64,000 nucleotides of DNA. It comes from Naegleria gruberi. Lineage: Eukaryota. This document shows, piece by piece, positions 8,321-58,205 of the stretch. The DNA is taken from the NCBI GenBank assembly GCA_000004985.1, contig GG738910.1. One strand, 5' to 3'. The translations under genes and the position numbers were made by a program. The number at the start of each line of letters is the position of its first letter. Position 1 is the stretch's first letter. Under the pieces are notes generated by a model. The model made no database searches and was not told the DNA's origin. It was given only the letters and a program-made list of their open reading frames with translations.

Positions 8321-8381
8321 AAAGTTAGTACTTGTAAAATAAATAACTAGGATTAAAAGACGAAGACTATATATTACATAT

Positions 8382-29585: not shown

Positions 29586-32404
29586 ATGCTGAACCGAGTC
29601 TTTCAAACTGGTGTCCTGTTGGTACTCACTCTTACTGTTTTAGTTTTGATTATTGACAATCAACTCTGTGTAAATGCAACATTTAAACCATTGTACAAGA
29701 TGAGTACTGTTGTGGGTGGTGGATTTGATGATGGTCAAGATGCTAAACAAGTTTGCCTTGCTCCAACCAAAGTCAAGTTTGATAGAAAGAGTGAGAATAT
29801 TTATATTTCAGGTGAGTTTTTATTCTAAACATGCTTCAAGATTATATGATTAGATAGAATCAATAATAGAATCAGAAAGTTGGATGTGATGAGTGGAAAG
29901 ATCAGCACTATTGTTGGAAATGAATTTATTGGATTTTCAGGAGATGGTCAAGCAGCAACTCTTGCTCATATCAATAATCCAGGAAAGGTTGAGGTCTCTT
30001 CAAATAATGATATTTACTTTGCTGTAAGTTCTCTTTGTTCTGTTTCTAATACACTCATTTCAAAAAGGACACTAACAATCACAGAATTAGAAAGGTATTT
30101 GCCAATGGAACGATTTTAACCATTGCTGGTTGTGGAGAATTTGGTTTTGATCTGGAAGAGAAATCTCCAGTTCCTGCTCTAGAAGCCAAAATCAATTATC
30201 CTAAAGCAGTTCTTCTCTCTTCTGATGAAAAGATATTGTACATTACAGATACAGCTTCTCACATGATCAAAGCTCTTTCATTCGAAACTGGTTTAGTTTC
30301 CATTATTGCTGGCTCTTTATACCGTGATAGTTCTCAAAACTCAACGATTGTTCAAGGACCAATCAGTTTGGCTTTGAGCCCTCTGACTAGTGAGGTTTAT
30401 TTTGTAGATGATGATGGTATTAAAAAGATTACTAATGAAGGAAAGATCGAAATGATAACAAGAAATTCTAAATTTGGTGGAGATGGAGGTCTAGCAATCA
30501 ATGCTGGAGTTTCAGCTGTTGATATTGAGTTTTTGGGCACTAGTAATACATTGTTAATTGCTGATTACGGCAATAATCGAATTAGAATTATTGGTACCAA
30601 TGGCTTTATTGAAACCTATGCTGGTAATGGTAATGTGACTTCAAGTATTGATGGCGAAAGAGCTTTAGATTCTCCACTGACGGCTTTTGGAGTTTCCACA
30701 TCTAATGAGGGTGAAGTTTATTTTGCTGATTATGCCAGAGTTTCAGTTGTCACCATTAATGGCTTAATCAAACACGTGGCTGGTAATGGGAAATTGCAAT
30801 ATTTGGGAGATGGTAATTTAGCAACCCAAAGTCAATTATTCAAGCCAAGAGGTGTTGCTGTTTCCACAAGTGGAGAGCTATTTATCAGCGATTCTGCTCA
30901 AGATACTATTCGAAAAGTTTCTACTGAAGGTGTAATTAATACCATTGCCGGTGGAACTTTTCCATTGGGAGGTTATATTCAAGATGGTGTTGACCCATTG
31001 AATACATTCCTTAATAATCCAAGCGCTCTAGAATTTTCATCAAGTTCAGGAGAATTGTTTCTTTCAGATTCTCACAATTTTAGAGTGAGAAAGATTTCAA
31101 AGGAAAATATCATTTCTACAATCGCTAACCATACCTCAATCACCAGACCACACGGCATTGCTCTTTATAATGACTTGGTTTATGTGGCTGATTCTCAATC
31201 CAATAGAGTGATACGAGTTGATAAGAATGATGGCTCTGTAACTCTGATAGCAGGAAATGGAACTGCTGGTTATTCAGGAGATGGAAGTTTGGCTACTCAA
31301 GCTCAATTATTCAATGTTTCTGGAGTTACTGTTCTTCCTAATGGTGAAGTTTTGATTGCAGACACCAACAATCATAGAATTCGTAAGGTCAACTTGGAGG
31401 GTATTATTCAAACAATTGCTGGTACAGGAATTCCCGGATTTAATGGTGATAATATCCTCGCCACTAGTGCTCAATTGAATTCTCCAACTGACATCGAAGT
31501 TTCTCCAGTTTCAGGTGAAATTATTATTGTTGATTCGAATAATCATCGTATCAGAAAGATTGATTCCTTTGGTAATATTTCTACAATTGCAGGAACAGGT
31601 ATTGCATCATTGAGCTCACATGGTAAACTTTCCATCTATGGAAGTCTTAACACTCCAACTACGCTTTCAATTTCTGCTTTCAGTGGTCATGTCTACATTG
31701 CAGATTACGAAAATAGAAGAATTAGAAAATTGGAACAATTTACTATTGAAAAATACAATCTTCCAGTTCAAGATGATGGTGAATTGAGAACCGAAACTAT
31801 CCAAGATTCTACAAATCTTAAAACAATTAATTATGATAATATTCAAATTGAACCTCCAAAGGAAAGTTTAAAGAATTCAGAGCTGAGTCTTGCCACTTCA
31901 GTTTACCAAGTCGACAGAAATGGAAAATTAACATCTTTTGAAAAGTCTATTAAGAGTGGAATTGTCACTGTTGCAATTTTGGATTCTGATTGTAATGTTA
32001 TAGAAAATCCATTTACTTCTCCTCTCACAATTACATTCACTGAACTTGATTTCAATTCTACATCAAACTATTCCTGTATTTCGTACAATCAAGAATCCAA
32101 AGAATGGAAGAATGATGGCTCTGTCAATGAAATTTTATCTCTTAATTCAAAATTAACAATTTCATGCAAATTTAGCAAACTTTCATCATTTGCAATAATG
32201 GAATCAAGTGGAGGACCTAGTCCAATAATAACTGCAACCTCTTCAAATACTAATACTTTCAGGGACGCTGGCTTGGGAACTGATGCTATTGTTGCCATTG
32301 TTGTTTCCACTGTTGGTGGTGTAGCTTTGGTTGGAATTATTATGGCTGTAATTGTTGGAATATTGTTTATTATGAAGAGAAAGCAAAATCTTTCCAAAAT
32401 TTGA
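29586..32404 (+). CDS. Cluster member 2: NHL-repeat / GPS-like / single-pass TM surface protein; 3 exons, approx join(29586..29811,29854..30023,30095..32404)
   Basis: ATG at 29586 (track M at 29580 is a non-ATG start). Signal is VLLVLTLTVLVLII. Exon 1 ends ...ENIYISG with a GTGAGT donor. Exon 2 reads DRINNRIRKLDVMSGKISTIVG...SNNDIYFA (textbook NHL blade) and ends at a GTAAGT donor. A 71-nt intron with a 'cactaac' branch motif follows. Exon 3 is in frame with ORF 30236..32404 (many NHL blades). Juxtamembrane ...CISYNQESKEWKNDGS...LTISCKFSKLSSFAIMES (GPS-like), then TM AIVAIVVSTVGGVALVGIIMAVIVGILFIM. Confidence 0.65.
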
Positions 32405-32461
32405 AATATTTAATTAAAATTTTCCTTTAGTGTGTTTGTCTAATTGTTTTTTGAATTCAAT

Positions 32462-32928
32462 GTGGGCAAAAACTTCATAAAAAAATATTCAACATTCTGC
32501 TACTAAAGTAGGACATGATGATTTTCGGAGTGGTTTTGCATCATGAAAGCACCAAACTTTCACATCATCATCTCAACATGATCTATATAGTAGTAATAAT
32601 AGTAATTTTTATTGGTGGATTATCATCATGAAATTGGAATTTATTTTTCATCATGGAAAATCACAAGTTGGTACATCATCATCGGATCACTCACCAACCA
32701 TCATCAATGTTATTTGCCATCAATATAATAATAGTATTTGTGGAATTTAATTTTTAGTAATATAATTTTGGTGAAATGTCAAAATTTTCACTAAATTCAT
32801 CATCACTGCTGGATCTACTGAACAAGTTGGAAAACTGTCAATGTAGTATTGTTCGGAATGATCAATAGTAGGTAAGAGAATTTGGGCAAGTTATGATAGG
32901 GATAGGTACATGTGAATTTTGAAAAAAG
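32462..32928 (-). repeat. Dispersed ~470-bp noncoding element, copy 1, immediately 3' of the 29586..32404 gene (opposite orientation to copy 3)
   Basis: The reverse complement of 32462..32928 aligns at roughly 97-98% identity to 57672..58175 (e.g. 'cagtgatgatgaatttagtgaaaattttgacatttcaccaaaatt' is identical in both). The flanking sequence outside these bounds is unrelated. It contains a 38-codon ORF at 32517..32633. Confidence 0.7.
32517..32633 (+). other. Conserved small ORF inside the repeat element (MMIFGVVLHHESTKLSHHHLNMIYIVVIIVIFIGGLSS*)
   Basis: In-frame stop two codons upstream of the ATG. The same ORF is present in copy 3 on the minus strand at 57981..58097 with one amino-acid change (S->T) and one synonymous change. 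The C-terminal 16 aa are strongly hydrophobic (TM-like). Confidence 0.3.
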
Positions 32929-34104
32929 AGCAACAAATATTCTAACTGTTAACTAACATAATCACCTTAGCCAGTTCATCAACATTACATTCACTGCATC
33001 CACTCAACTTTGCATCTAGCATTAGTCATTTTACAAGTATTAAACAGGCCTCTCAAACTCAGCAACATTCCACTAGTCAATTTAAACAATTATATGAAAC
33101 AAATCCTGTCTTGAATGATTCTAATCTACAACTAGAAGAATCAACAACTCTAACCAATCCTCCTTCATTCTCTCTGCCTCCAAAGATTAGTAAGAATTCG
33201 TTTTCGAGAAAAACAATTTCAACTTCATAATTGAGTCTGGATTCTCTTGGTCCAGAAAAAAGAAAGAGGAAGAAGAGAAGCAATTTAATGTGGAAGTGGA
33301 ATAACTCTGTGATTTTTCAACAGAGTGGAACATTAAAGGAAGGTCTGTGATTTTTCAACAGAGAGGTTTCTTTTTGGAAATACATTGAGCATTCCTTTAA
33401 GTGTCAGTTTTCAAGGGAAAAGGAGAACTTGTCCAGTAGATCCAGAATTTATTACTAATGACTTGTTGGTTGGCCCTGTATTTTAGTCAATTAAGAACCC
33501 AAGGCAACCATTGAAAATTGATATTTAGTATTGATTGTATGGATGGTTTGATGATTTGTTTGGATATGATTTCCTTAACTGTAAGAATGTTCAATTCCAC
33601 ATCCGTCCGCAGTGCTAGCAACATTGCTTTGGTTGTATAAAACGACCCTTCTGGAATATTATTAAGGTTGCAATTATTAATATACTAAGGTGGGGTATTG
33701 TTAATCCTAGTTGAACCGTTGATGATTGTTTTGGAAGTCAGGTTATCAAACCAAATGACACTCTATTTAAGACATGATCGTTGAGCTTCAAGTTTGTGTT
33801 TTGGCCTTTGCTAATATTAATAACACTTATTGAAACATGTTGTGGACGCTGTTTGTTGCGTGGTTTTGACTATTAAAAAAGATCTAAAACAATACAAAAA
33901 CAGCTTTTCCTTTTTTAAGTATTTTACTGTGGAGAAGCCATCACCAACAATACTGGTGGTGGTGGTGCACCACCTGCATTGTTTGTGGCATCTTGCTTGT
34001 AATATAGTGTTGGACAACTGTCCGCTATTCATCTCAACAGTGCCTTAAATCACACACTTAATACTTGGTACCAATAATTTCAAACAATAAAAATTCTTCG
34101 TGTG

Positions 34105-37100
34105 ATGATGACGGTGACGGTACTGAGAGGAGTTAAGGGTGCAATCAATACTAACAGCGCAATATGGCACCACCCATGGAAATATTTAAAAATCATATTG
34201 CTTTGTATTTATTGGGTAGTAATTTTAAATAGTAATCATCATGTACAATGTACAGCAACATACAAATCGAAGGTAATTGTGGGAATGACATCATTGAGTC
34301 CTTTGAACAATGTGTCAATCTCAAGTAATTATGTGATTCCCGGAAATATTTATTTAGATAGTACTGCTGGAGTAATGTACACGACCGAAGATGCAAAAAT
34401 TAGAAAGATTACTCTTTCATCGGGTATTATTTCAACACTTGTAGGTTTTCTAGAAGTTTTTAATGGTTGTTAATTTATGTGTAAAAAACAAAAGGTTGGA
34501 AGTGGTAGATTTGGAACAACATATACAACTGATCCTACGACGACTCAAATGCATATGCCAAAAAGCTTAACACTATGGAAAACACACTTAATTTGGATTG
34601 ATGGATATGTGAGAATTAGAAAATTGGATTCATCCACTAATCAAGTTTCGGTAATTTTTGGTGCAGGAAATGGAAACTCTGACAATACTGTTACAAATCC
34701 TCTCTTGGTTCGATGTGGTTCTTCTTTGTCAATAACTGTAGATCCTTCAGATAATATTTATTTTGCAGATTTTGGTAAGTATTAATTCTTTGAAGTTACT
34801 TGACATTGGAAAAGATAATGTGATGGTAAGAAAAATTGACGGGACTACCAATGTAGCTAGTGTTTACAATTATTACCCTAGTGGTTTATTGGGTTATCCA
34901 GTTCAAATCAAATATTGTAATGGAGGCCTTTATGTATATGTAAATGATAACGTTAATTTCTATATTCAAAAATTGACGGAAAGTGATGGAACTGTTTATG
35001 CAAGCGTAGAGGTTGGAGGTGGTTCATCAAAAAGTACAGGTATTTCTGGAACTTCCTATCAAATGGATGCCACTAACTATGTTACCAAGATGGACTGTTA
35101 CAATAATGAGCTTTATTGGAATGCGTACGATTATAGCATTAGAAAACTAACAACTGGTGGAATTGTGGAACAGGTTTTGGGAAATGGATATAGAGGTGAG
35201 TCAGAAGATGGAACCATTACATCATCTTCAATAATTGGTTACATTGAATACTTAACTATTGATCAGGCGAATGGTGATCTTTACTTTGCTGAAAATAATT
35301 ACAACATTAGAAAACTTGTTGGAACTACTTTGTCTTCATTTTTGCATTATAGAAATGTATTGAATGAAGGAAATCCAAAAACTCTTCCATTAGTTACAAA
35401 GGCAATTGCTTTATACAGTGATGGAATTTATTTGGCTGAACCAAACAGTATTAAGTTTTACAATTTAACAAGTTCAACAATTAAGCATTTTGCGGGATAT
35501 TTTTATCTTCCATATAACAACAAAGCCCCAATAGGATCTTTAAATATTGGAGGTTCTTATGTGACTGCTAGATATTCTAGCATTCTATCTATGACATGCA
35601 CTCCAACAGGAGATATCTATTTGAGTGAGTATTATATGAATTTTCATTCAAAATTGATTTAATAGTTGATAATCATTATCCTGGATTTTTTATCAAATTA
35701 CTGTCAAAGAGCACGGGTTTAGTTACAATAGTAGCTGGCACAGCTTCTGCATTAGAGTGTGTTAATGGAAATACTCCAACTGCTTGTGCTATTACTGTAA
35801 GTATTTTTCTCTCATTTATTGTTTCCAATTTTATTCTAGAATGCCAAAAATATACAATATTACAATGGTGAGGTCTATTTTGCAACAGATATCTACATTT
35901 ACAAAATCAGCTCATCAACTGGAAAGATTGAGATTGTTTTAGGAGGCGGTACTTTCACTTCTGATGGTGCATCTTCATCAGCAAATATTGCAACGCTTGG
36001 TACGTTAATTGTCATTCTCTTTCATTTAATTCTTTTATAGGTGCTTTTACGATACGACCATCAGATGGAAAGATATATTACTTTCAACAAATCGGTTTTA
36101 CGTTTTATCTCAAAGTTTTCTCTACTTCAACAGTTACAACACTTTTTACTGTAAGTGTTGATTGAACTATTTAATCTAACTTAATTAAGACCTCTTCTGT
36201 TCCTCTTGTCCCATTCAGTCTTTATGTAAACGACAACGGTTATGTGTACTACACTGATAGTATGACTAATACTGTTAAACTTTTCACACCTACAACAGCT
36301 AATGCTAACACTGGTACACTTACGTCATATGCTGGTAATAGTTTTGGAACATATAATGATGGAGAAACTCTGGCTAATACCAAGTTCACTACACTTGTAG
36401 GTTTGACTTTTTCCAACGATAACAACTTGATGTTTGTTGCAGACGATAAACTCAGAATAATTTACAAGGAGTGTGATGCAAATTATGGTGGAGATTATTG
36501 TAATCTACCCTATTGTTACTCGATTAGATCTGATGACTCCACTGTTTGTAATTCTAATGGAAATTGTACAGATGTTAACAATTGTTTGTGTTCAAATGGT
36601 TTCTCAGGTGCTAATTGTTCTTCTTGGACTTGTAATGGATATTCAAATTCTCTTACAACTGGCTGTTCTTATCATGGTACTTGTACATCATATAACACTT
36701 GTAATTGCTCATCTAATTATTATGGATCTAATTGCTCAATTACAACATGTAATGATATTTATTCTAATTCAAGTGAAGTTTGTTTAGGAAGAGGTATATG
36801 TGCTCAAGTAGACGATTGCCATTGTGAATTTGGTTTTACAGGCAATAATTGCCAAAATTACAACTGCTCTGGAATTGCTTTTGACAATTCCAGTGTCTGC
36901 TCTTCCAGAGGATTGTGTTTATCTCCAAATAATTGTTCTTGTCAAAGTGGGTTTTTTGGAAATGAGTGTCAACACTATAATTGTTATGGAATTCTCGCTA
37001 ATTCGTCTCAAGTTTGTTCCTCAAGTGGTGTATGTTCATCTCCAAATAATTGCACCTGTAATGATGGTTACACTGGTGATGAATGTCACTTGACTTCCTG

Positions 37101-40100
37101 TTATGGCGTTTCTTCCAATAATTCAAAGGTTTGTTCAGGTCATGGAGGTTGCAGCTTTTATAATAATTGTATCTGTGAAAGTGGATATTTTGGAAATGAT
37201 TGCTTCTTCTATAATTGTTTTGGTATTCTGAATACCAATAGTTCAGTATGTTCTGGAAATGGTAACTGTACAATGCATGATACATGTGAGTGCAAAGAGA
37301 GTTTCACTGGATTAAGTTGTAATGTTACAATACCACAAAATAGTCCAATTATTAGTAATATTTCTTTTGGTAACATTACTTTTAATAATACTTCTATGAA
37401 TGAAACATCTTACTTTAACGAAACTCTCATGAGCAACATATCAATGACTAATGGCAGTTCAAATTATATTTCTTTGAGTAATAATACTGTAAATACCACT
37501 TCCTTAAATGATACAGAGTACTTTAATGAAACCAAAATGAACCCTAGCAACATATCAATAACCAACAGTAGTTTAAACTATACTTCTTTAAATGATACTG
37601 CAAATTTCAATGAAACCAAAATGAACAATGACTCTTCTCATAACTCAACTTCTAACACTAATGAAACGGATGTAAATTCTCCCCTCCTTCAACAAAATAC
37701 ATCCACTATCAACAATACCATTCTTAACAATAACGTCTCTGCTGAGTCCTCCCAAATTTATTTACTGGTTTCGTGTTTTGGTATTCTGAATACCAATAGT
37801 TCTGTCTGCTCAGGAAATGGTAATTGTTCAATGAATGATACATGTGAGTGCAAAGAGAGTTTCACTGGATTAAGTTGTAATGTTACAATACCACAAAATA
37901 GTCCAATTATTAGTAATATTTCTTTTGGTAACATTACTTTTAATAATACTTCTATGAATGAAACATCTTACTTTAACGAAACTATAATGAGCAACATATC
38001 AATGACTAATGGCAGTTCAAATTATACTTCCGAAAACTCAACTTTCACCGTTAACGAAACAGATGTAAATTCGTCTCCACAAAATACGTCAACAATCATC
38101 AACAACACCAACCCAACAACTTCTAACACATCTTCTGTTATGCAAAACAGCACATGCTATGGAACCAATTCTACTCTGGTCTGTAGTGGAAATGGAAAAT
38201 GTTTAACTAACCAACAGTGCTCTTGTGACTATGGATACGCAGGTGATGTATGTGAATTGAATACGTGTTTTGGAATTCCTTCTTCTGATAGAGTATGTAA
38301 TGGAAGAGGTGTTTGTTCAAATATCAATACTTGTGAATGTTTTTCTAGAATTGGAGTCAAGATTATGGGAGATGAATGTGAAACTTTGCTTTGCAGAGGA
38401 GTTTATAATGGTGTGGGGTATTTCTTTTCAGATATAGACTCAAGAGTTTGTTCAAACCATGGAAAGTGCTTTATTGATTTAAATAATTCTTCAGGCTGTT
38501 TTTGTGATTATGGTTATTATGGAGATTCGTGCAATAAGTATGATTGTTTCTCGGAGTCAAGCACTAGTGAAAATGTTTGCTCTGGACATGGAACATGTGA
38601 AAGTCCTGATACTTGTCAATGCTTAAATGATGACACAAATGGACATTTTGCAGGACCAAACTGTAATACATGTCATTCGGCATTTTCTGGATCATCTTGT
38701 AAAGACAAGACATGTACTGCTTCAACATGTTTGAATGGAGGTTCATGTGGAAATGAAAACCAGTGTGTTTGTACCAGTAATTTTACAGGACTGATTTGTG
38801 AGGATTGTAAATTAGACCATTATGGGTTAAATTGTAATGTCTATTGTAATTATGAAACTACGTGTAATGGACATGGATTTTGTGATATGTTGAATGGAAC
38901 CTGTTTATGCTTTTCAAGCAGAGAAAATGGATATTGGAATGGAACAAGTTGTAATTCATGCCTTGTAGACTATTATGGCAGTGATTGTTTAACTCGTTTT
39001 GATTCCTTCAATTCAACTTATTCTTCAGCATTATTTGGACAAATTTCAAAATATTTTGATGGAATATCATTCAAGTTATTTGGGCCTTCTTATTCACATA
39101 ACAGCATTTCATGTTCCAAATTAATTCACCCCAATGATTTTTCACTATTTGGTGTAGAACCAAAATGTTATTGGACAGATAAATTGAATGGTGTATTCAA
39201 AATAGAATTTGATAATGATTTTACATTTGACATCACTAAGGTATTGAGTATCCGATTGAATACAAATGTATTCTCCAATACCTTGATTGATTATGGGTAC
39301 ATTAGAATGTATTTGATTCTGTCTGACAATATTCAAGCACCAACAGCAAATATCAAAACCTCAAAAAAACTTTATTCCACGTCTGAGAATATTTATCTTA
39401 GTGCTAGTAACAGTTTTTCAGGAGATAAGAAAGGATTAGAATATTATTGGAGTATTAATGGACAAAATGTACCAATGAATGTTTTACAATCAACAATGTC
39501 AACAAAGGATCAAATTCTAAAAATTGAAAAAGATCAATTAACCAGTGGAACTTTCGTTATTTCATTATTTGTCAAAAGCCAAGTAAGCAAATTGTCGAGC
39601 TCAACTGAGTCAATCACTATTCAAGTTCAAGATGTTGAATTTCCCTCTGTTGTAATTTTAAATAAGGAAATTTCAGTGAAATCAATAGACAAATATATAA
39701 CAATCAAAAAGACAACCTCTATTCCAATATCTTTGAAAGAAAAGGAAATGAAAATAGAATGGCAACAAATAGAAGGACCAACATCCATCAAATTCAAAAA
39801 AGACTCTTACAATAATTTAGTTATTGAACAATTATCAATTGGAAAATGGAAATATGTTTTCAAAGTTTCAATATTTGTTGTTGAAAATCCAACATTAACC
39901 TCTAACGACTTCGTTGTAATCAATGCAGATCAACCAAAACTTTCACTATCATTATCATTGAAACAATCAACAAGAATATCTAATTCTATTCAGGTGAATT
40001 TTCAAGATCCTGAAAACAATTTAGATGAATACGAGCGTTGGAAGTGGACATGTATTGATGTTGCCACGGTTGGATATTGTGGTGATACAATTTATCAAAA

Positions 40101-42357
40101 TCTTGCTTTGAATTCAAAGAATCGCTCCACAATTATTAATCTTTCACAACAAGATTTTCCATCCTATGTCATGAGCCCAACACTTACATTGTTCATTATG
40201 AAGGGAGATAGAAGCGTTTATAGCTCGTTAAATTTAAATATTCAACATTCACCTCCAATAATCAGTGTTATTAGTATTTCACCAAATTTGAGAAATATTG
40301 TAACCAATGATGATAAAATATCAATTGAAATGAAACATCAAGATCAAGATCCCTCCAATTCATCACTCGTAATTAAAACTCAATGGAAAATTGATAACTT
40401 TTTGGTATCTGAAAGTAATACCAAAAAAGTGAATGGAAATGAATTTGAAACAACTAGCTCCACAATCACAACACCTTTTAAGCATCTTAAGAGTTTAAAT
40501 AAGAATAAGTATAGCTCGTTAGTTATTGACTCAAAAGAACTAGAAGAAGGAACTGATCATTCAATTGAGGTCAAAGTTTCCTTTGTGGATAGTTATACCA
40601 ATCAAGAAATGGCCGCCACTTCAAATGTGAACAGTTTCACAAAAGCCTTACCTCCAAGAAAGTGTCCATGTACCATTTCACCAACAACTGGTGTTTCAAT
40701 GAAGACTGATTTTACATTCAGTTGTGATAATTGTCAGAATGAAGATAATACAATTGAAATCAAACAAGGATACATTGATCAAGAAACTGGAATTAAGGTT
40801 TATTTACCATTGTCATTGGATGGTTCCGTTAACATTCCATCTTCCTCTTCTGCTACATCTTCTACCAAAAGAAGATTGGATGATCATTCTGTTCAATTAT
40901 TTGTTGAACTGGGTGACAAATCAACAGGAGAATCCAGAGTAATGTATTCGAATATCACTGTACTACCTCCAAGCCCACCACATCCAACTTTATCTGAAAT
41001 TTTAAATCTTGTTTCAAATCAAACAAGTAAGATCATGTCTACTTCAATTCAAGATGGTAATACAGCAGTTAGTATTGCAGATACTCTTACTTGTATTGTG
41101 TCAACAAGTCAATTATTACAAACACTACCAAGTACTGATAAGGAAACAAGTACTGTCACTCAAGTTCAATCTAAATTATTAGATACATTATCTAGTTCAT
41201 TGCAAACAACTGGATCTGATAGTGTTTCAAGTTCCACAACGTCAATGGCCGTTCTAGCACTGCATTCCGTTGTGAAGAACGAACAAGTAATTGAAAAACC
41301 AGTTATTCAAAAATCAATTACCATTCTAAATAATGTTATTCAATTGACACTTAAAAGTAAGGTTGATATTTTCACACAAACATCAAAACCGCTATTAGCA
41401 ATTGTTGGAAAGTTAAGTGACCAAGTTGCTAAATTTACCCACTTGAAAGAGGAATTTATAAGATACGAGGAAATAGCATCAACGGCTGAGATGATAACCC
41501 TGTCCTATGTTTCTGTTCAACCAGTGAGTGGTGATCCAGCAGCAATTCATGAGAGTGTTGTTAATGCCAAGGCTGACAAAATGTACTTGACTGATTTTTC
41601 AAATGTAATTATATCATCAGCGCCAACAAGCAATTCTAAAAAGAGAGTGAATATTTATCAATCTTTTGTGAATATTCCACCAATGAAAGTTACAGAAAGT
41701 AATGAATTTGCAGAATTGACCTATTCCTACATTGTTAAAGAGCATGTTCCATCGATTTATCAAAAAATTTTACAACAAGAATCAAATAACTCTACCAATG
41801 GAACAAGGTTTGATGTAATTTCATCTGTGAGTGCTTCATTAGCAATTTCATCTCCTCATGCTCACATGATTGAATTTTCTCAAAATTTGACAATTTATAT
41901 TCATGTCAATGATGAAGATTTCTCCACAGCGTCATTGACAGAATATGCATGTGTATTAGTCAATTCAAATTTGGAAAGCGATTTTGAAAATTGTACCATT
42001 TCAGGACGTGACAAGGCAACTGAGTCAATTGCTTGTAATTGTCGATTCATTGATCTACATGTTTCTAATGTAATAATTCTCAAAAACAATAAGCAAAAAA
42101 TAGTACTACAGAACAAACAAGAAGAAGGTCTAGATGATGATGTGTTGGTGATTATAATTGTTGCAATTGTTTCATGTGTTGGATTGTCTATTCTGTCAAT
42201 TTCAATGGTAATGGGAATTTTTGCTTGTTATATGAAGAAGAAATCTAAAAAGATTTATCCTTACGAAAGAAAGGAATTAATTTCACACAATATTGAACAA
42301 CCTACCAAACCTTATGATAATTCATTGATTTCAACATCTTCCATTTCTTTACTTTAG
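34105..42357 (+). CDS. Cluster member 3 (giant, ~2,664 aa): NHL propeller, tenascin-type EGF arrays with N-glycan-dense stalk, PKD/REJ-like module, GPS-like motif, C-terminal TM; 7 exons, approx join(34105..34440,34495..34774,34815..35624,35666..35796,35840..35999,36041..36150,36190..42357)
   Basis: The joined ORFs 34102.., 34477.., 34763.. and 36244..42357 need 39-54-nt introns (donors gtaggt/gtaagt/gtgagt/gtaagt/gtacgt/gtaagt; acceptors aaaag/aaaag/aatag/tctag/ttatag/ttaag). Summed CDS is 7,995 nt (divisible by 3). Splicing restores NHL blades such as ...IYFADFG|DNVMVRKIDG... and ...LSKSTGLVTIVAGTASALECVNGNTPTACAIT|NAKNIQYYNGEVYFATDIYIYKI.... Then ~30 CxCxxGYxGxxC EGF units, the module with ...SASNSFSGDKKGLEYYWSINGQNVP..., ...CPCTISPTTGVSMKTDFTFSCDNCQN..., juxtamembrane ...YACVLVNSNLESDFENCTISGRDKATESIACNCRFIDLHVSNVIIL, TM LVIIIVAIVSCVGLSILSISMVMGIFAC, and a short tail. 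Confidence 0.6.
37217..38028 (+). repeat. Internal direct duplication (~255 nt at 37217..37467 and 37774..38028) flanking a sequon-dense spacer, inside cluster member 3
   Basis: Both copies encode CFGILNTNSSVCSGNGNC(T/S)M(H/N)DTCECKESFTGLSCNVTIPQNSPIISNISFGNITFNNTSMNETSYFNET(L/I)MSNISMTNGSSNY. About 140 nt (approx 37300..37440 vs 37845..37985) look identical. The intervening ~300 nt encodes almost continuous N-x-S/T sequons. Confidence 0.7.
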
Positions 42358-42974
42358 ATTATTCCAATCATCAAGATGTATGTAACATTGCAAATTAATA
42401 AAAACAAAATTGAGAACAAGTAATTATACTAATGGATACTAAAGCTCAGGGACTGTTTCACCTTTAAGGTGATTCAGTCTTGAGACCTGCATTAATGGAT
42501 ATAAATCTTTATTAGCAGGTCCCGAGAATAATAAATATGGCTCTTATAAAAAAACTTATGTTGTGTCTATTAATAATTATCGCACGATGAGCTGTGCCAA
42601 TTTTATTCCTTTCCATTAATAGGATATTTCTCAAGATTTCAAAATCTCGAATACACCATAAAACAGCAAACAATGAATAGAGTACCGACTATGTATTGCT
42701 TACATCCTACCTATATACTTTTCATCATAGGAGACAATGTAGGTGATGTGAAATTTAATTAAAATCAGAAATATCAAAATCTTCATGATTTCAACGAAAC
42801 ACGACGAAATAATTGGCACGGTACATCTACAATAGTACTAATAAAAGTTTATTAATGTTTCAAGATGATTGACTGTGTACTTTTGGCATGAATCATGATT
42901 GGTGACCATGAATAACCCGAAGTTGACAAAAACACAAAATGATGAAAATTGAAAGTTTTCCAAATTATCATGTG

Positions 42975-43310
42975 AATCTGGCAGTGATGATGATTTTAGT
43001 GAAAATATTGAATTTCACTAAAATATTACTATTATCAGATTTATTTCCACAAATATTACTATTATAATGATGATAAATAACAATGATGATGGTTGGTAGT
43101 TGTTCCGATGATCATGTACCAACTTGGATTTTTCCAAATAATAAAATTATGAAGGAAAAATAAAATTATTTCCAAATCATGATGAAAGATTAAATTCCAA
43201 AAATTACTATTAATACTATTATTTAAATCATGATGAGATGATGTGGTGAAATTCTTGGAGTTAATAGATGTGAAACTACTCCAAAAATCAATAGAGTTGT
43301 GATGTACCTG
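42975..43310 (+). repeat. Degenerate partial copy (copy 2) of the dispersed element, between cluster members 3 and 4
   Basis: It aligns in the same orientation as copy 3 (e.g. 'cagtgatgatgattttagtgaaaatattgaatttcactaaaatattactattat...ccgatgatcatgtaccaacttggatttttcc') but with many substitutions and indels. The small-ORF region is disrupted. Confidence 0.5.
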
Positions 43311-43396
43311 ATCAACATATTTTTAAAAAAAATAGAGACAGTTGACAAAACAAAAAAACAACAACAAGCTCATCACCACCTGCTAAATAATTATTT

Positions 43397-46300
43397 ATGA
43401 TGAAGACCTCCATTTGCTTCCCATTACTACATTCAAACCACAACATGGCTGTACATTATAGTAAAGGTTCATGTTCAACTACTACTTTGTTGCTAGAAGA
43501 ACAAGATGTGGCTGAAGGTGTTGAACGCCTGTCTCCTCTTGTTCTAAACCTTCGGCTCGACTTCATGCCACCAGTGTTGATTAATAACATTTACTGTCCA
43601 AATATAAAGTGGTGTACTTTGTCAGGAGCGTATGGACTGAAAAGGAAATGCAGAATCGAGATAATGTTTATATTATATAAACTGAACCTTAAAAAAATGG
43701 CCACGTTCATTCAAGAAAAACAAATGGCTGTTTCTAAGGGTGCACAAAAATCATCAATAATTTCAACCATGATGATGATAATTTTTGTATGCCTATTATT
43801 TCTCGCTAACTCGATAAGGGGAATTGACTTTGAGGTTGCGCCTTATTACAAAGTAACAACTTTATTGAGAGAAGCCGATAAAGTTGAGTGTGTTCGTTTT
43901 GGTCCGAAGGGTATATATTATTCCAAGCCATACCAAATAGTTTTATACTCTTTGGACAGTTCTTCAATGTATGTAACTCAAGGAGCTGGCAATTTTGGCA
44001 CTGGAGAAAGAGGCGACACTAATGGTGCTAGATACTGGCGTGATATTACAGGAACATATTCATTAAAATCCAAGATTGATTACCCTTACAAGTTTGCCTT
44101 CCATGCTGGAAGATCCAAAACTTACTTTGCACTGGCTAATCATCAAGTAAAGCTAGACACTGACGATGTTATTTCTCCATTCATTGGTAAACCAAATGTA
44201 ACAGGTAATGCGGAAGGAGATCCTACTTCTGAGTGTCTGTTGAATGATCCTCAAGGAGTTGACGTTTCATTTGATGGTGATTTTGTGTATGTGGCTGATA
44301 CTGGTAACAATCTTATCAAGTATACTTCATACAAAGATGGTGTATTCGTCATTAGTAATCTTGCTGGTACTGGTAACACAACAAGTTTAGTTGACGGTGT
44401 CAATGCTTTACAGGTTGACCTTAATAGACCTGTTTCTGTAAGGTTTTCCAAAAAAACAGGTGAGATTTATATTGCAGAAAAGGGAAATCATGTTATTAGA
44501 AAAGTTAGAAAAGACAATATTGCTTCTGTAGCGGTTGGTTCAATTGGTATCTCAGGTTATAACGGAGATTTTAAGAGTTCTTTGGATTCATTTTTGAGTG
44601 AACCAAGTGATATTGCGATTTCCACTAGTGGTGTTATATATATTGCTGATTCTGGTAATAATCGAGTCAGAAAAGTTTATCAAAATGGTATGTTGGTTTT
44701 CCTCTATTCAGTTTTTACCTTGGGAATGATATATAGGAACAATAACAACTGTATGCGGAAATGGAATGAACATGTATGGAGGCGATTCACTTGATTCTAG
44801 AAGAACAGCAATAGGAGGTGTAAATTCTGTTGATGTTAATGAAAATGGAGAATTAGTTATTTCTCACATGAATTATATTCGTAAATTGACTCCTATTTGT
44901 TATAATGGTTATGTATTCAATTCTGAAACTCATTTGTGTAATCCGTATTTCCAGTGTTTTGGAAAGAAACATACTGAACCATATGTGTGCTCTGGAAGAG
45001 GATCTTGTATTAACCATAATTGTATTTGCAAAGAAGGATTTGAAGGAGAAAAATGTGAAACTATATCAAAGGTTTTCAATGTGAAACGATTGTTGGTTTC
45101 TGGAGAAGTAACAAATCTACCACCATCAATTTTAGCAGCAAATATGAAACATCTTCAAGTGAGCAATACTGGCGACATGATTGTCCTTACACAAGATGGA
45201 ATCCTTGGAAGACTTGTTGGAAACTCACTGGTTAAAGTTTCTCAATCTAGTCTGGCATTGTTCTACCTGGAAGAAGATGGTTCAATACTTACAACATCTA
45301 CTACTTCAATTATCAAGATTGGTATTGATGGAGCTATATTATCTCTTGTAAAAACAACTAATTTCTATGATGTAGATGGCGTCTCACCAACAAATATTAA
45401 TATTGGCGCATTTAGTTGTATTACACAAGATCAAGTTTCAAAAGTCTACTATGTTACAGAATATTACTCAAATGTTTTTGCAAAAGTTGAAAATGGGAAG
45501 TTAGCTTTACTGATTAGTAATACAAAAGGATTTGCAGATGGCTTAAAAAATGTTGCCAGATCTACCTCTCCTAAATTTGTTTATGCATATGGAGGCACAG
45601 TCATATTTTCAGATTATAACAGAATAAGAATGTGGAAAGATTACACAACCACAACAATTGCAGGTAATGGTATCGAAGGATACAACGGAAATAATGTACC
45701 AAAATTGGCCTGTTCTTTTGGTGAAATTGTTGGGTTTCATGTAGTTAGAAAATCAGCAACAGTGTTTTGGATTTACGTTTCTGACAGTTATTCTAGAACA
45801 ATCAGATTAATCAAAACCAATGAAAATAATGTAACTATAATTGCTGGATCCCCTGGGACCGGCAAATACATGAATTTTGAGGATAACCCCAAGAAGGCCA
45901 TTTTTTCATTACCTATTGGTTTATCGATGGTCAATGACACTTTATATTTCATTGACCAAGGAAGTAGTAGAATTATGAGTCTTTCACCTGATGGTACTAA
46001 ACTGACAACCATTGCAGGCGGAAGAGGTGTTTTAAACGTTGGAGAAAATCTAGACCAACGGTTTTCTTATTTTGGTCCATCCCCTACAGGAATTTATCTT
46101 AAAGAATCACCAACAAGGGAATTATTAATTAGTGATAGTAATATTGGCAGAATAAGAAAAAGCATTTTTGAAAACAATCTTTGGGGTAATGTGACTACAC
46201 TTGCTGGTACTTCAACCAGTGAATTGCCAGTTGATAAAGGAATGGATGGTGACTGTTTAACTTGCGCCTTCCTAAGACCTTCAAAAATACGATTCGGGGG

Positions 46301-49300
46301 AAATGAAACTCTACTTGTATCAGAATCGATTAATACTGTCAAACTTATCAATGTTGGGCAGGGATCAGTTAGAACACTTGTTGGAACTCCTTACACTAAT
46401 CCTCTACAAAATCCATCTCTTGTAACTGTCAATACGTCAGCAATAGGATTCCAGATAGATGGGTTACGGGATGCTATTCTTGTTGGAGATGAACTGGTTT
46501 TTGCTGAAAAATCCAGAATTCTTAAGGTCAATTCACAAGGTTTAATAGAAATTGTTGCTGGTGATGGAAATGGTTATTCATGTAATTTTGGTAATTACAT
46601 GTCGGCCAAAATGGCAAAGTTTGGCAATAATGCTGTGGGAACAAAATTGGTAACCTCTCTCGATTATTACGATGGAGAGATTTATATTTTAGAAGAATAC
46701 GCTCTCAGAAAAGTTAATTCCAAAGGAATAATGATACCAATAATTAGTGGGCAAGGAACAACGTCTTGGTCGAATGGAGTTAGAAAATTGCCATTACAAG
46801 ATGCATCAATTCCTGCATGTAGTTTTATGAAAGTTGTTAATGAAAATGAGATTTATATTCTCAGTACTGCAGGACAGTTGTATATTGTAAGAAATGGAAC
46901 TGTTGAGAGACCTATTATAACTAAAGATTTATCTTTTATGGGCCCAGTATATTCCCAATTCTATAGCACAAGCGATGGAGAATTTTACATGTTGACTGCA
47001 AATACGGTTGAATTAGGTAAAATGAGTTGTCCTTCATTTTCCAAACAAAATGAAAATGATACATGTGAAAATATGATAACTTGTTTTGGTTTAAAGTCAA
47101 CAGATCAAAATGTTTGTTCAACGAATGGTAAATGTTCAGCTTTGGATACATGTATCTGTAATTTTGGTTGGAGTGGTGTTAAATGTAATGAATCAACTGC
47201 TCAATTGGTGATTCAAAGCCTGAACCCAAACAGAGTTACCACTGATGATGGACTTGATATTGGTTTCAAAACCTCCTCTTCTCCATTGACAAATTTAAAA
47301 GTTGATACAAAAACAGGAATTGTTTATTTGCTTTCTGGAGGAAAAACCATTTCTCTCAACGGCAAAACAAATGATTGGGTTAGATCCAGTGATACAACAT
47401 CAAAATCTATGATTATTTCTAAAACAACAGGTTACTTCTATTTTTTAAGAGAATCTTGCATCTACCAAAGGGGAGCAACTCCTTATCCATATTATTATTC
47501 TGGAAATTGCTACACTAAGGGTTCAGTTCTTGGAACTATTTCAACCGCATCATATAACAACTTGGAAGATGGTGACTCTGGGGAGGATGGTAGTTTGTAT
47601 ATAGTTGATAGTGGAAATCACGTTGTAAGATTAATATCAGAAGGAGTAATGTCAACCTTTTGTGGTAGTTTTGGTGTTTCTGGTTTATTTATCAACTCTA
47701 ATTCCTCAACCAAAACTTTTTTGAAATCACCAAGGGCCATCAAAGTCACCTCAAACGGGGTTTACATTGCTGATAGTGGAAATTACAGAATTCTTTTTAT
47801 TGATAAATCTGGACATGTCCAAAAAATTGCAGGGTCATCAAATGGTACATCAAATGGGGATGGAAAAGCAACTCTGACAAATATTTTCCCTTCTAATTCA
47901 TTGGATTATTCAGAGAGTCGCCAAGAACTGTACTTTATAGATAATAATAGAGATGAGATGAATTCAGGGAGTGTAAAAGTAAGAAAGATTACCAAAGATG
48001 GATATGTTGAAACGTTGTTTGGTTATTACGAGAGGGATCCATATTCAAACTTAACAGTTCCAATGACCATCACACTGGAAAAGGATACCAGTTTCTATGC
48101 AGCAAATTCTTTGGCTGTTTCAGGTGATTACTTGTATTTAACATTTGATTCTGTGAAATTGATTGCAAAAGTTTCACTTTCCACAAATACCTTGTATGTG
48201 GTTTCCAAAATAGGTTCAGTCCTGAATGGTGATGGCTTTCATGTCGGTTTTACCACCTTCCAACACCCAAGTGCACCATATTTCCATAGTATTACTCGTA
48301 CTTTGTATTGGGTTGAAATGTCCTCAATAAGAATGATGAGAGATAACAAAGTTTACACCGTGGTTGGCCTTAATTCAAACATTCCTTCCTTTGGAAAGAT
48401 GAAACCATTGTGGAAAGATATTTCTCCAAAAGGAATTGCACTTTCATCAACTGGAGAGTTATATTTTTCTGATGGACAGCATGTCATTTATAAGATTCTA
48501 AATTCAAGATCTGATATTGAAATTGTTTGGGGAAAGAAAGGTGTTTATGGAAGTGCTGACACTCTTCTAGAAAATCCAACTGCTATTTTTATTAATTCCA
48601 AAGATGAACTGTATATTGCTGATTCATACAGAATAATCAAGTTTGACATCACCTCCAAGAAAATTACTAAAATAGTGAGTAAGAGTGATGTATATTTTGG
48701 TATATGTTCATCAGTGATAGAACTTTCAACAGGAGAAATAGTCTATGTGGATTCTTATTTTAAAAAAGTTAGAATGATTCTCAACAATGGTACAAATATT
48801 ATAATCGCTGGTGGTGGTTTAAAAACAGGTGTTTCGAATGGTGATCTTGCAACAAAACTACTTTTCACCACTCCTGTTTCAGTTCAAGAAATCAACACAG
48901 GAGTATTACTTTTGCTGGAGCAAAACTCTTTGATCAAGATGACTTGGTCTCCATCTAGAAATGGTTATATTTGTTCAATAATTGCTGGAAAGGGCTTATA
49001 TAGTATGACTGCCTCAGGAAATGGTGGTCTTGCGATAAATGCTGTTATCTATAATTTTGCTATGAGTTACAATACATTTACGAAAGAGGTTTATCTTCTT
49101 GACAATGTTGAGTCAAGAATTATCACTCCGTACTGTCCAGAAGGGTTCACTTTTAATATTTCAAATGAGACATGTCAGCCAGTTGATATGTGTTTTGGTT
49201 TTAATTCAAATGACAACAGAGCGTGTTCTGGAAGAGGTGAGTGCGTTGGTCTTGATGCATGTAATTGTTTTGGAGGTTACAGTGGAATCAAGTGTGAAAT

Positions 49301-57002: not shown

Positions 57003-57671
57003 TAAATATTACTGTATTCTCAAACATTCGAAATGTTCAAAAATAAGGGGTGTATTCCAACAGTGTGACGTAGTGGATTTCCAGACCTCTTTTTCAGGGT
57101 AGTTCAACTCCAGCTATTTTGATATGAGCTGATGAAATACCTTCTATCTCAATTAATTTGTCAGATATTGAAGTAATAAATTGTACAGAGAGAGAATATA
57201 TCACTGGGAATCTATCTTCTTCTAATGAATGTTTCTCATCCCTTATTCGTTGAATATAATAGTAAAGTATCACAAATATTAAAGAACAATAGTGAAAATT
57301 ACAGGAAAAGATAATTATCTGGTGGATGAATGACATGCTATTCGTGATGTTTCAGTGAGAAGACAATATCCACATCATGAGAAAAACAATAAAAACATGA
57401 AAATATCAGATATCCATGAATTTCACAAACTATGCTATAAGACTCGAAATTATACATTTAATAACATAATAAACATTATGAATTGTTGTTTTATTGTTGT
57501 TTGATTTGTAATTGGGCTATGAAACTCTGGTAACATCAAATATCAGAACTTGGTAAATTGACAACATGAAAATCTGATAATAAATATGATGTTTATTATC
57601 TATTTAAATAGTAGTACTAAAAGACATGATTCAAGTTGGTGAAGTACATGCTGAGTTATGGTCCATGTACT

Positions 57672-58175: not shown

Positions 58176-58205
58176 TTGTAGATTGCTGAAAAGAACAAGA
58201 GCCAT

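What the first reader, a model, noticed from the sequence alone, without database searches (positions are those of the whole stretch)
32462..32928. Near-identical ~470-500-bp noncoding element in the 3' flanks of two cluster genes, carrying a conserved 38-codon small ORF with a hydrophobic tail
32462..32928 and 57672..58175 are about 97-98% identical (inverted relative to each other). The adjacent coding sequences and all other intergenic DNA are unrelated, so this is not ordinary paralogue divergence. Each copy starts within ~60-100 bp of the stop codon of a cluster gene (29586..32404+ and 58206..63872-) and is oriented the same way relative to that gene. A third, decayed copy lies at 42975..43310 between members 3 and 4. 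The element is full of (C)ATGATGA / CATCATG motifs. It contains an intact ORF MMIFGVVLHHE(S/T)TKLSHHHLNMIYIVVIIVIFIGGLSS in both good copies (32517..32633+; 57981..58097-). The ORF has only 3 nt differences, one of them synonymous, and ends in a TM-like segment. Candidate explanations are a recently mobile non-autonomous element that targets 3' ends of these genes, a gene-converted 3'-UTR regulatory module, or a real micropeptide or ncRNA gene.
Basis: seen in the sequence. Interest (0 to 1): 0.8.

Follow-up and report, generated by a model that had tools for sequence, protein, structure and literature searches.

The report
Non-coding inverted repeat in Naegleria cluster
Two near-identical 460-490-bp stretches and one decayed copy in a Naegleria gruberi surface-protein gene cluster are a real but non-coding low-copy repeat, most likely left by a mobile element, and the small protein read from it is almost certainly not real.

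Summary
The repeat is real. Copy A (32468..32926, +) and copy B (58160..57671, -) are 97% identical over a 365-nt core and about 90% identical overall, with three indels. Copy C (core 42948..43290, -) is about 76% identical. The window is Naegleria gruberi NEG-M.

The 38-codon ORF is not supported:
- It changes at the same rate as the rest of the element.
- B has lost its first ATG.
- C has no ATG and an in-frame stop at codon 24.
- It has no relative in 5.8 billion or 1.84 billion proteins.

I found no Rfam family, no tRNA, no significant conserved fold, and no similarity to the cluster proteins. Single copies have no terminal inverted repeats or target-site duplication.

A and B are an inverted pair bracketing a 25.7-kb block. 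Their outer ends abut the stops of two convergent genes. A 7-bp direct repeat (TGTGGGC / TGTGAGC) lies immediately outside them (chance about 0.005-0.02). Removing the block leaves a 101-nt spacer. One event therefore explains the "3'-flank" positions better than two targeted insertions.

Verdict: an ordinary, unclassified, probably transposon-derived repeat. Genome-wide copy number could not be checked.

The parts
32468..32926 (+). Copy A of the repeat (459 nt), starting 63 nt after the stop codon of gene A (NAEGRDRAFT_59588, stop 32402-32404)
   Evidence: Compared with B and C it carries a 15-nt deletion.
57671..58160 (-). Copy B of the repeat (490 nt), starting 45 nt after the stop codon of gene B (1835-aa predicted protein, stop 58206-58208). 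It is inverted relative to A.
   Evidence: It has a 16-nt extra segment near the 5' end, a local duplicate of AAAAAATATT(C/T)AACATT.
42948..43290 (-). Copy C, an old decayed copy (core 75-76% identical to A and B). The profile alignment stretches it to 42858..43329, but those ends are not significantly similar.
   Evidence: There are 77 substitutions in 326 aligned columns.
32515..32631 (+). 38-codon ORF in A (MMIFGVVLHHESTKLSHHHLNMIYIVVIIVIFIGGLSS), judged spurious
57981..58097 (-). The same frame in B. The first codon is TTG, so translation would start at the second ATG. The frame is also open upstream to an ATG at 58205 (74 aa), directly in frame after the gene B stop.
32461..32467 (+). TGTGGGC, immediately outside the outer (5') end of A. 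Candidate target-site duplication of the whole A..B block.
58161..58167 (+). TGTGAGC, immediately outside the outer (5') end of B. It is a direct repeat of 32461-32467 with one mismatch.
   Evidence: The chance of a match this good is 0.0046 at fixed boundaries and 0.021 with 0-2 nt of slack.
32468..58160 (.). 25.7-kb block bracketed by A and B. It holds an NHL gene fragment (34102-35662), an EGF/REJ gene (36244-42357), copy C and a giant NHL/EGF/REJ gene (43397-57002). No transposase was found.
32413..32418 (+). ATTAAA poly(A)-signal hexamer of gene A, upstream of the element and inside the palindrome TTTAATTAAA
   Evidence: PMC11529991 for N. gruberi signal usage
32767..32795 (+). Best-kept internal hairpin (TTTGGTGAAA / TTTCACTAAA, 10 bp). 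Its stem is kept in C while its loop changes.
   Evidence: The structure as a whole is not significant in an unbiased test.

Best explanation
The element is a non-coding, low-copy dispersed repeat. It is most likely the remains of a non-autonomous mobile element that depends on an enzyme encoded elsewhere. It is not a gene for a micropeptide or a structured RNA, and not a 3'-UTR module.

Shown:
- It is a discrete unit of 460-490 bp with sharp ends.
- It was copied at least twice after the surrounding surface-protein genes had diverged beyond DNA alignability. C split off at about 24% divergence, and A and B at about 2.7%.
- All three copies drift like neutral DNA.

Inferred: the two young copies did not land independently behind two genes. 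They are the outward-facing inverted ends of one 25.7-kb block. That block sits in what would otherwise be a 101-nt spacer between the convergent genes A and B, and it is flanked by a 7-bp direct repeat. One insertion of a block bounded by long inverted repeats therefore put both copies next to a stop codon, in the same orientation relative to 'their' gene. A macrotransposition or local hop of two element copies plus the DNA between them would do this.

I put the general statement (transposon-derived, non-coding, ORF spurious) at about 0.55. Within it I put the single-event sub-claim at about 0.3-0.35.

Once in place, a 460-bp inverted pair at 97% identity is also a substrate for gene conversion and for inversion of the block.
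For: - Repeat and boundaries.
- Only three copies in the window and none in four related contigs.
- Coding sequence next to the copies is unrelated, and the element does not resemble any cluster protein.
- Substitution rate is equal inside and outside the ORF (3/116 against 7/249).
- The ORF is broken in C.
- No protein relatives.
- No Rfam family or tRNA.
- Fold z-scores are -1.75 and -0.36.
- Pairs predicted from A alone are kept in C no better than a substitution-shuffling null (76/102 against 70.6 +/- 3.4, P = 0.075).
- The outer 7-mers TGTGGGC and TGTGAGC sit at exactly the two outer boundaries (P = 0.0046-0.021).
- The reconstructed spacer is 101 nt, comparable to the 61-nt convergent spacer at 8320/8382.
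- Background: Naegleria genomes carry few classified transposons, and most N. gruberi repeats are unclassified (bioRxiv 10.64898/2026.06.24.734286; PMC12344493; PMC6125883).
Against: - No copy outside this 26-kb stretch could be examined, so mobility is inferred rather than shown.
- A single copy has none of the hallmarks of a known transposon class: no terminal inverted repeats, no per-copy target-site duplication, no Helitron or LTR termini, no tRNA-like head.
- Three copies within 26 kb in a genome with few repeats points to a local process, which need not be transposition.
- For the single-event sub-claim, the block contains no transposase, only paralogues of the flanking genes.
- The 7-bp repeat has one mismatch and was found after trying several configurations, so its real significance is nearer 0.02-0.06.
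- Copy C inside the block needs a separate, older event.
- A contig from a second strain (L002) shows neither the filled site nor the predicted empty site.
Confidence: 0.55

Rival explanations
1. Two independent, fairly recent insertions of a small non-autonomous element that prefers, or is only tolerated in, the first few tens of bases behind a gene.
For: The unit is discrete, its ends are identical in A and B, and an older third copy shows the family has been copied before. In a genome that is about 58% coding (figure from my own recollection of the N. gruberi genome paper), the zone just past a poly(A) site is a safe place to land (inference).
Against: Neither copy has a target-site duplication or terminal inverted repeats of its own. 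Copy C and two paralogous genes do not follow the rule. Landing twice within 45-63 nt of a stop codon, in the same relative orientation, within spacers of about 0.7-1.2 kb has a chance of roughly 0.002-0.006 (my estimate from coordinates). This reading also leaves the outer 7-bp direct repeat as coincidence.
Confidence: 0.2
2. The pair is not a transposon. It is a local inverted duplication made during a rearrangement of this unstable tandem cluster, for example an inversion with staggered breaks or a templated repair insertion. The two arms were later kept similar by gene conversion.
For: All three copies lie within 26 kb of a cluster full of internal repeats. Paralogues inside the block (+ strand) and gene B (- strand) have opposite orientations, so an inversion has probably occurred here. 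Single copies have no transposon hallmarks. There is a 139-nt identical run in the middle of the A/B alignment.
Against: Similarity ends abruptly with no older, weaker homology beyond the ends, so conversion between old copies does not explain the boundaries. The staggered-break and replicative-inversion models predict the short duplicated flank at an inner junction in inverted orientation, and it is not there (sequences read). The 139-nt identical run is not unusual for 11 differences in about 410 nt (about 0.1, my calculation). Copy C requires that the same segment was copied once before.
Confidence: 0.17
3. It is a gene for a non-coding RNA, for example a cluster of C/D-box snoRNA-like units on the - strand or a roughly 330-nt structured RNA on the + strand, present in three copies.
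For: There are seven UGAUGA (C-box-like) motifs on the - strand. Many sub-threshold C/D snoRNA matches fall on that strand (E = 0.3-9). The RNAalifold consensus has 7 compensatory pairs against 2.3 in shuffles, and several hairpin stems are kept in C.
Against: Nothing reaches an Rfam gathering score. The - strand has no CUGA D box and no terminal stems next to the C-box motifs (sequence). The alifold result is biased by construction, and the unbiased test is not significant on the + strand and negative on the - strand. Substitutions in C are not depleted in paired columns (49 observed against 49.4 expected). Fold energy is not unusual.
Confidence: 0.06
4. It is a 3'-UTR or terminator module shared by cluster genes and homogenised by gene conversion.
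For: A and B both start just after a stop codon, in the sense orientation. Gene B has no AATAAA or ATTAAA within 566 nt downstream, so its mRNA may end in the A-rich 5' block of the element (CAUAAAAAAAU).
Against: Gene A has an AUUAAA 9 nt after its stop and a T-rich stretch before the element starts. The median N. gruberi 3' UTR is 39 nt (PMC11529991). Copy C is antisense to the upstream gene. Paralogues L003 and L004 lack the element.
Confidence: 0.05
5. It encodes a real 38-aa membrane micropeptide.
For: The frame is open in both young copies and has a hydrophobic tail.
Against: - The substitution rate matches the flanking non-coding part.
- Between A and B, 1 codon difference is synonymous and 2 are non-synonymous, one of which removes the first ATG in B.
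- C has no ATG and a stop at codon 24, before the hydrophobic tail.
- All three forward frames carry 34-40-codon ORFs here.
- The longest open run is only marginally unusual (P = 0.05).
- The I/V/F-rich tail is what AT-rich DNA translates to.
- No hits in either protein collection.
Confidence: 0.02

Closest known systems
Miniature or non-autonomous DNA transposons (MITE-like unclassified repeats)
   Same: The unit is short (460-490 bp), non-coding and AT-rich. It has sharp ends, lies in intergenic DNA close to genes, and has copies of different ages.
   Different: Single copies have no terminal inverted repeats and no target-site duplication. Only three copies were seen, all within 26 kb. Family size is unknown.
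Large segments mobilised between two inverted transposon copies (for example Foldback-bounded giant 'TE' elements of Drosophila, or Ac/Ds macrotransposition). Recalled from general knowledge, not tested against sequences.
   Same: Long inverted terminal copies (about 460-490 bp, with internal short repeated motifs) bracket 25.7 kb of ordinary host genes. A short direct repeat lies immediately outside both ends.
   Different: No transposase or autonomous partner is known. The 7-bp repeat has a mismatch and only modest significance. There is no empty site or second instance, and no sequence similarity to any described family could be checked.
Low-copy inverted repeats or palindrome arms kept alike by gene conversion
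   Same: Two inverted arms 25 kb apart stay 97% identical while everything around them is unrelated. They are a potential substrate for inversion.
   Different: The arms are short. The differences (10 substitutions and 3 indels) are spread along the arms without a clear conversion tract. The origin of the arms still needs a copying event.
C/D-box snoRNA gene clusters
   Same: Repeated RUGAUGA motifs lie on one strand at spacings of 25-60 nt.
   Different: There is no CUGA D box, no terminal stems, no Rfam match at threshold, and no structural conservation.

Membership tests
MITE / small non-autonomous TIR transposon | Short (<800 bp) and without coding capacity | tested here: met
   459-490 nt. 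No conserved ORF and no protein relatives.
MITE / small non-autonomous TIR transposon | Terminal inverted repeats at the two ends of each copy | tested here: not met
   The inverted-repeat scan of A and B finds only internal CATCAT-type arms. The one end-to-flank match (32447-59 / 32913-25) lies outside the shared unit and is absent from B.
MITE / small non-autonomous TIR transposon | Target-site duplication flanking each copy | tested here: not met
   No 5-10-nt direct repeat with <=1 mismatch at 0-2 nt offsets around A or around B.
MITE / small non-autonomous TIR transposon | Many dispersed copies in the genome | not testable with these tools
There are three copies in the window and none in L001-L004. 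There were no matches in the viral, JGI metagenome or prokaryote collections.
SINE | Head derived from tRNA, 7SL or 5S with an internal Pol III promoter | tested here: not met
   No tRNA found by ARAGORN. No Rfam match of that kind even at E <= 10.
SINE | A-rich or simple-repeat tail plus a variable target-site duplication | tested here: not met
   Both copies end in GAAAAA, only 5-6 A. There is no flanking duplication.
Helitron (non-autonomous) | 5'-TC ... CTRR-3' ends with a 3' hairpin, inserted between A and T | tested here: not met
   The ends read A(A/C)AAACTTCAT ... GAATTTTGAAAAA on one strand and its complement on the other. Neither fits.
Solo LTR | 5'-TG ... CA-3' ends and a 4-6-bp target-site duplication | tested here: not met
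   The ends are as above, and there is no per-copy duplication.
Long-TIR or composite DNA transposon carrying cargo | Inverted repeats at the two termini of the unit | tested here: met
   A and B are inverted, 97% identical in the core, and their 5' ends face outward.
Long-TIR or composite DNA transposon carrying cargo | Direct target-site duplication immediately outside both termini | tested here: inconclusive
   TGTGGGC (32461-67) and TGTGAGC (58161-67) match at 6 of 7 positions. Chance is 0.0046 at fixed boundaries and 0.021 with slack, before correcting for the several configurations tried.
Long-TIR or composite DNA transposon carrying cargo | A transposase inside, or a known autonomous relative | tested here: not met
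   The interior ORFs are NHL/EGF/REJ proteins. The 1.2 kb next to A has no Pfam match in any of the six frames.
Long-TIR or composite DNA transposon carrying cargo | An empty site or further insertions elsewhere | not testable with these tools
   The only second-strain contig (L002) leaves the window sequence at 32422 and continues with 47 nt of 45778-45824.
C/D-box snoRNA | C box RUGAUGA near the 5' end | tested here: met
   Seven TGATGA motifs on the - strand of A.
C/D-box snoRNA | D box CUGA near the 3' end, a terminal stem, and a score above the family threshold | tested here: not met
   There is no CUGA on the - strand of the element (sequence). All Rfam matches score 10-23 bits against gathering scores of 37-70, and none pass at gathering thresholds.
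Micropeptide (small-ORF) gene | ORF kept open, with a start codon, in all copies or relatives | tested here: not met
   C has CTA TTG in place of ATG ATG and a TAA at codon 24. B has lost the first ATG.
Micropeptide (small-ORF) gene | Purifying selection (fewer changes, or mostly synonymous ones, inside the ORF) | tested here: not met
   3/116 substitutions inside against 7/249 outside. Codon differences between A and B are 1 synonymous and 2 non-synonymous.
Micropeptide (small-ORF) gene | Homologues elsewhere | tested here: not met
   No hit for any frame in 5.8 billion proteins. phmmer against 1.84 billion representatives gave 0 hits at E <= 0.001.
3'-UTR cis-regulatory module | Lies inside the mature mRNA of the upstream gene | tested here: inconclusive
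   For gene A, an ATTAAA at 32413 predicts cleavage around 32430-32440, before the element starts. For gene B, no canonical signal precedes or lies within the element. The median N. gruberi 3' UTR is 39 nt (PMC11529991). No RNA data were available here.
3'-UTR cis-regulatory module | Shared by paralogues in the same position and orientation | tested here: not met
   It is absent downstream of paralogues L003 (438 nt available) and L004 (1009 nt available). C is antisense to the gene upstream of it.

The most novel reading that the evidence does not exclude
A and B are the long terminal inverted repeats of a 25.7-kb, non-autonomous, cargo-carrying transposable unit. That unit moved three surface-protein genes (NHL/EGF/REJ type) as one piece into the 101-nt spacer between two convergent genes, leaving a 7-bp target-site duplication. 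This would be a giant gene-shuttling transposon in a heterolobosean, a lineage where almost no transposons have been characterised, and a mechanism for reshuffling surface-protein clusters.
Probability: 0.2. Interest if true: 0.7.

Novelty: new member of a known kind. Interest (0 to 1): 0.3.

Why it matters
As it stands, this is a housekeeping result. An eye-catching 'conserved small ORF' turns out to be a by-product of a CATCAT-rich, AT-rich repeat, and the apparent targeting of gene 3' ends can be explained by geometry alone.

It has some value for Naegleria genomics. Reported transposon content is very low and most repeats are unclassified, so a cleanly delimited family with young and old copies is a useful seed for repeat annotation.

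If the single-block reading holds, it would show that large pieces of a surface-protein gene cluster can be moved or inverted between a pair of 460-bp inverted repeats. That bears on how such clusters diversify.

Tried and rejected
- **Giant-virus or bacterial origin.** Rejected: aconitase 8382-11117(-) is exactly XP_002670969.1 of N. gruberi, and genes A and B are annotated N. gruberi proteins.
- **Decayed 3' exon or TM-coding fragment of a cluster gene.** blastx against all cluster proteins gave nothing better than E = 1.4.
- **Read-through extension of the upstream genes.** The frame is in phase only in B, not in A.
- **Tandem or satellite origin.** TRF finds only a 9-nt, 2.2-copy array. 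The internal self-similarity is short CATCAT-centred words.
- **snoRNA cluster.** There is no D box and all matches are sub-threshold.
- **Conserved RNA structure.** The RNAalifold result looked positive but did not survive an unbiased test.
- **Transposase remnants.** None were found beside the copies or in the block.
- **Replicative-inversion and staggered-break models.** The predicted inverted flank copy at the inner junction is absent (sequences).

Searches for more copies led nowhere:
- Exact-pattern scans of viral contigs, JGI metagenomes (two patterns) and prokaryote genomes found nothing.
- Exact look-ups of small ORFs in and around the element found nothing.
- A look-up of an N. gruberi paralogue showed the NCBI genome is not indexed.
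- A concatenated query meant to pull second-strain contigs next to the copies returned only the NCBI gene B.
- The supplement of the N. gruberi 3'-end paper is not held.
Full report
**Source and setting**

The window is nuclear DNA of Naegleria gruberi NEG-M. The aconitase ORF at 8382-11117(-) is residue-for-residue XP_002670969.1, on a 243,952-bp scaffold.

- Gene A is NAEGRDRAFT_59588, and its annotated CDS ends at 32401.
- Gene B is an annotated 1835-aa predicted protein ending at 58209.
- From about 26 kb to 64 kb the window holds a cluster of large single-pass membrane proteins built from NHL, teneurin-type EGF, REJ and PKD modules.
- GC content is 31-38% throughout.
- A metagenome (ENA ERZ929261) holds a second strain about 99% identical in DNA.

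An ungapped 368-nt stretch of A and B is 97% complementary. BLASTN gives 90% over 488 columns because of three indels.

Global alignment puts the shared unit at 32468..32926 (+) and 58160..57671 (-). It has four parts:

- an identical block of 29-31 nt at the 5' end;
- a short scrambled patch, where B carries a 16-nt local duplicate of AAAAAATATT(C/T)AACATT;
- a 365-nt core with 10 substitutions;
- a 15-nt indel followed by 36 identical terminal bases.

Beyond both ends similarity is nil. The terminal 22-24-mers occur nowhere else in the window.

A profile built from the copies finds exactly three copies in the window. It finds none in four related contigs.

Copy C (42948..43290, -) is 75-76% identical over the core. 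Its putative end segments are no more similar to A and B than shuffled sequence is. C shares the 15 nt that A lacks, so A carries a deletion.

CATCAT is strongly enriched: 9 of the window's 59 occurrences fall in the 459 nt of A.

**The small ORF**

The ORF in A is 32515..32631. The evidence against it is as follows.

- In B the first codon is TTG, although the frame happens to stay open upstream to the gene B stop codon.
- Between A and B the ORF has 3 substitutions in 116 nt, against 7 in 249 nt for the rest of the core. The rates are the same.
- The codon differences are one synonymous and two non-synonymous, one of which removes the first ATG.
- In C the homologous frame has no ATG and stops at codon 24, before the hydrophobic tail.
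- All three forward frames of the element carry 34-40-codon ORFs.
- The longest open run is only marginally unusual for this composition (P = 0.05).
- No frame of the element resembles any of 5.8 billion proteins.
- phmmer of the 38-mer against 1.84 billion representatives gives no hit at E <= 0.001.
- The I/V/F-rich tail is the expected translation of ATA/GTA/ATT/TTT-rich DNA.

I reject the micropeptide reading.

**RNA readings**

Nothing reaches an Rfam gathering score, and no tRNA is present.

A permissive scan lists about a dozen C/D-box snoRNA families on the - strand at E = 0.3-9. These matches are triggered by the UGAUGA motifs. That strand has no CUGA D box and no terminal stems.

Fold energies are ordinary, with z-scores of -1.75 on the + strand and -0.36 on the - strand.

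An RNAalifold consensus of the three cores looked encouraging. It had 95% of cells paired and 7 compensatory pairs against 2.3 in shuffles. That structure was fitted to these same sequences, however.

I then predicted the structure from A alone and asked how many pairs survive in C. The null shuffles C's substitutions among columns with the same base.

| Strand | Pairs kept in C | Null | P |
|---|---|---|---|
| + | 76 of 102 | 70.6 +/- 3.4 | 0.075 |
| - | 58 of 91 | 64.6 | 0.98 |

Substitutions are not depleted in paired columns. C therefore looks like a neutrally decaying copy.

**Relation to the genes**

The element resembles no cluster protein, so it is not a decayed exon.

Gene A has ATTAAA 9 nt after its stop, followed by a T-rich stretch. 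The element begins 63 nt after the stop.

N. gruberi uses AAUAAA or AUUAAA 15-20 nt before the cleavage site and has a median 3' UTR of 39 nt (PMC11529991). Copy A therefore most likely lies outside the gene A mRNA.

Gene B has no canonical hexamer for 566 nt downstream. Its transcript may run into the A-rich start of B.

Two paralogous NHL genes on other contigs have no such element downstream. Copy C is antisense to the gene upstream of it and sits about 70-100 nt before the start of the next gene. A shared 3'-UTR module is thus unlikely.

**What kind of repeat**

The flanking genes are too diverged to align as DNA, yet C is 76% and A/B are 97% identical. The unit was therefore copied after the genes diverged, and at least twice.

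A single copy carries none of the hallmarks of a known transposon class:

- no terminal inverted repeats;
- no target-site duplication of its own;
- no Helitron or LTR termini;
- no tRNA-like head;
- only a 5-6-A tail.

The pair, however, has a striking geometry.

- A and B are inverted, with their 5' ends facing outward.
- Each 5' end abuts the 3' end of one of two convergent genes.
- The 7 bases immediately outside them are a direct repeat: TGTGGGC at 32461-67 and TGTGAGC at 58161-67.

In 200,000 random flank pairs from the window, a match this good occurs with frequency 0.0046 at fixed boundaries and 0.021 with 0-2 nt of slack. I examined several configurations, so the fair figure is perhaps 0.02-0.06.

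Removing the block and one 7-mer leaves a 101-nt convergent spacer. The aconitase pair in this same window has a 61-nt convergent spacer.

One insertion of an inverted-repeat-bounded 25.7-kb block would explain three things at once:

- why both copies sit just behind a stop codon;
- why they have the same orientation relative to 'their' gene;
- why there is a flanking direct repeat.

Under two independent insertions the positional coincidence alone has a probability of order 0.002-0.006 (my estimate from the spacer lengths).

Four points count against the block model:

- The block contains only NHL/EGF/REJ genes related to the flanking ones and no transposase.
- Copy C needs a separate, older event.
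- The prior for such macrotranspositions is low.
- The models in which an inversion creates the second copy predict an inverted flank copy at an inner junction, which is absent.

I therefore rank the scenarios as follows:

| Scenario | Probability |
|---|---|
| Transposon-derived repeat overall | about 0.55 |
| - within that: single-block insertion | about 0.3-0.35 (absolute about 0.2) |
| - two independent insertions | about 0.2 |
| Non-transposon local rearrangement with gene conversion | about 0.17 |
| ncRNA gene | 0.06 |
| 3'-UTR module | 0.05 |
| Micropeptide | 0.02 |

**Context and limits**

Published surveys give very low transposon content for Naegleria:

- 0.28% classified transposons in N. 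gruberi (bioRxiv 10.64898/2026.06.24.734286);
- 2.2% interspersed repeats in N. lovaniensis (PMC6125883);

Three copies in 26 kb therefore reflects local history rather than genome-wide density.

I could not search the rest of the N. gruberi genome. It is not indexed for locus retrieval. Pattern scans of the viral, JGI-metagenome and prokaryote collections were empty. Attempts to fetch second-strain contigs next to the copies also failed.

The one informative second-strain contig (L002) follows the window to 32422, 18 nt past the gene A stop. It then carries 47 nt identical to 45778-45824. This is either a chimeric contig tip or a deletion allele, and it does not decide the question.

**Verdict**

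The feature is real, non-coding and probably transposon-derived. It counts as a new member of a known kind. The ORF and the '3'-end targeting' are not supported. Interest is modest unless the 25.7-kb block proves to be a mobile or invertible unit.

Noticed in passing
L002 3400-3446 versus window 32422/32423 and 45778-45824: A contig from a 99%-identical second N. gruberi strain (ENA ERZ929261) follows the window up to 18 nt past the gene A stop. It then ends with 47 nt that are 100% identical to the inside of the giant NHL/EGF gene 13.4 kb away. This is either a chimeric contig tip or a 13.4-kb deletion allele that would remove copy A, the NHL fragment, gene 3, copy C and the start of gene 4.
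   Followed up: partly
window 37216-37472 and 37774-38030: A 257-nt direct repeat, 96% identical and 558 nt apart, lies inside the EGF/REJ gene 36244..42357. It is a recent internal duplication of an Asn/Thr-rich segment with many N-glycosylation sequons (families D5 and D6).
   Followed up: no
window 61638-62962: A tandem array of nine to ten 117-nt units (39-aa EGF repeats) lies in gene B. Neighbouring units are up to 90% identical, suggesting ongoing expansion or homogenisation (D1 and D3).
   Followed up: no
window 43397-57002: ORFs 43397..44794 and 44766..57002 overlap by 29 nt in different frames. Together they would encode an NHL+EGF+REJ+PKD membrane protein of more than 4,500 aa, so there is a short intron or a frameshift at about 44770-44794. 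The C-terminal 350 aa found no annotated N. gruberi protein.
   Followed up: no
window 34102-35662: An NHL-repeat gene is split over three reading frames, lacks the C-terminal transmembrane segment of its neighbours, and is only 22-28% identical to them. It is probably a gene fragment or pseudogene, or it contains introns.
   Followed up: partly
window 32408-32419 and 57640-58205: The gene A poly(A) hexamer lies in the perfect palindrome TTTAATTAAA, which reads ATTAAA on both strands. Gene B has no AATAAA or ATTAAA within 566 nt of its stop. In the reconstructed 101-nt spacer, the palindrome would serve both convergent genes.
   Followed up: partly
window 8320-8382: The aconitase gene and its convergent neighbour are separated by only 61 nt between stop codons. 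This shows how tight convergent spacers are in this genome.
   Followed up: no
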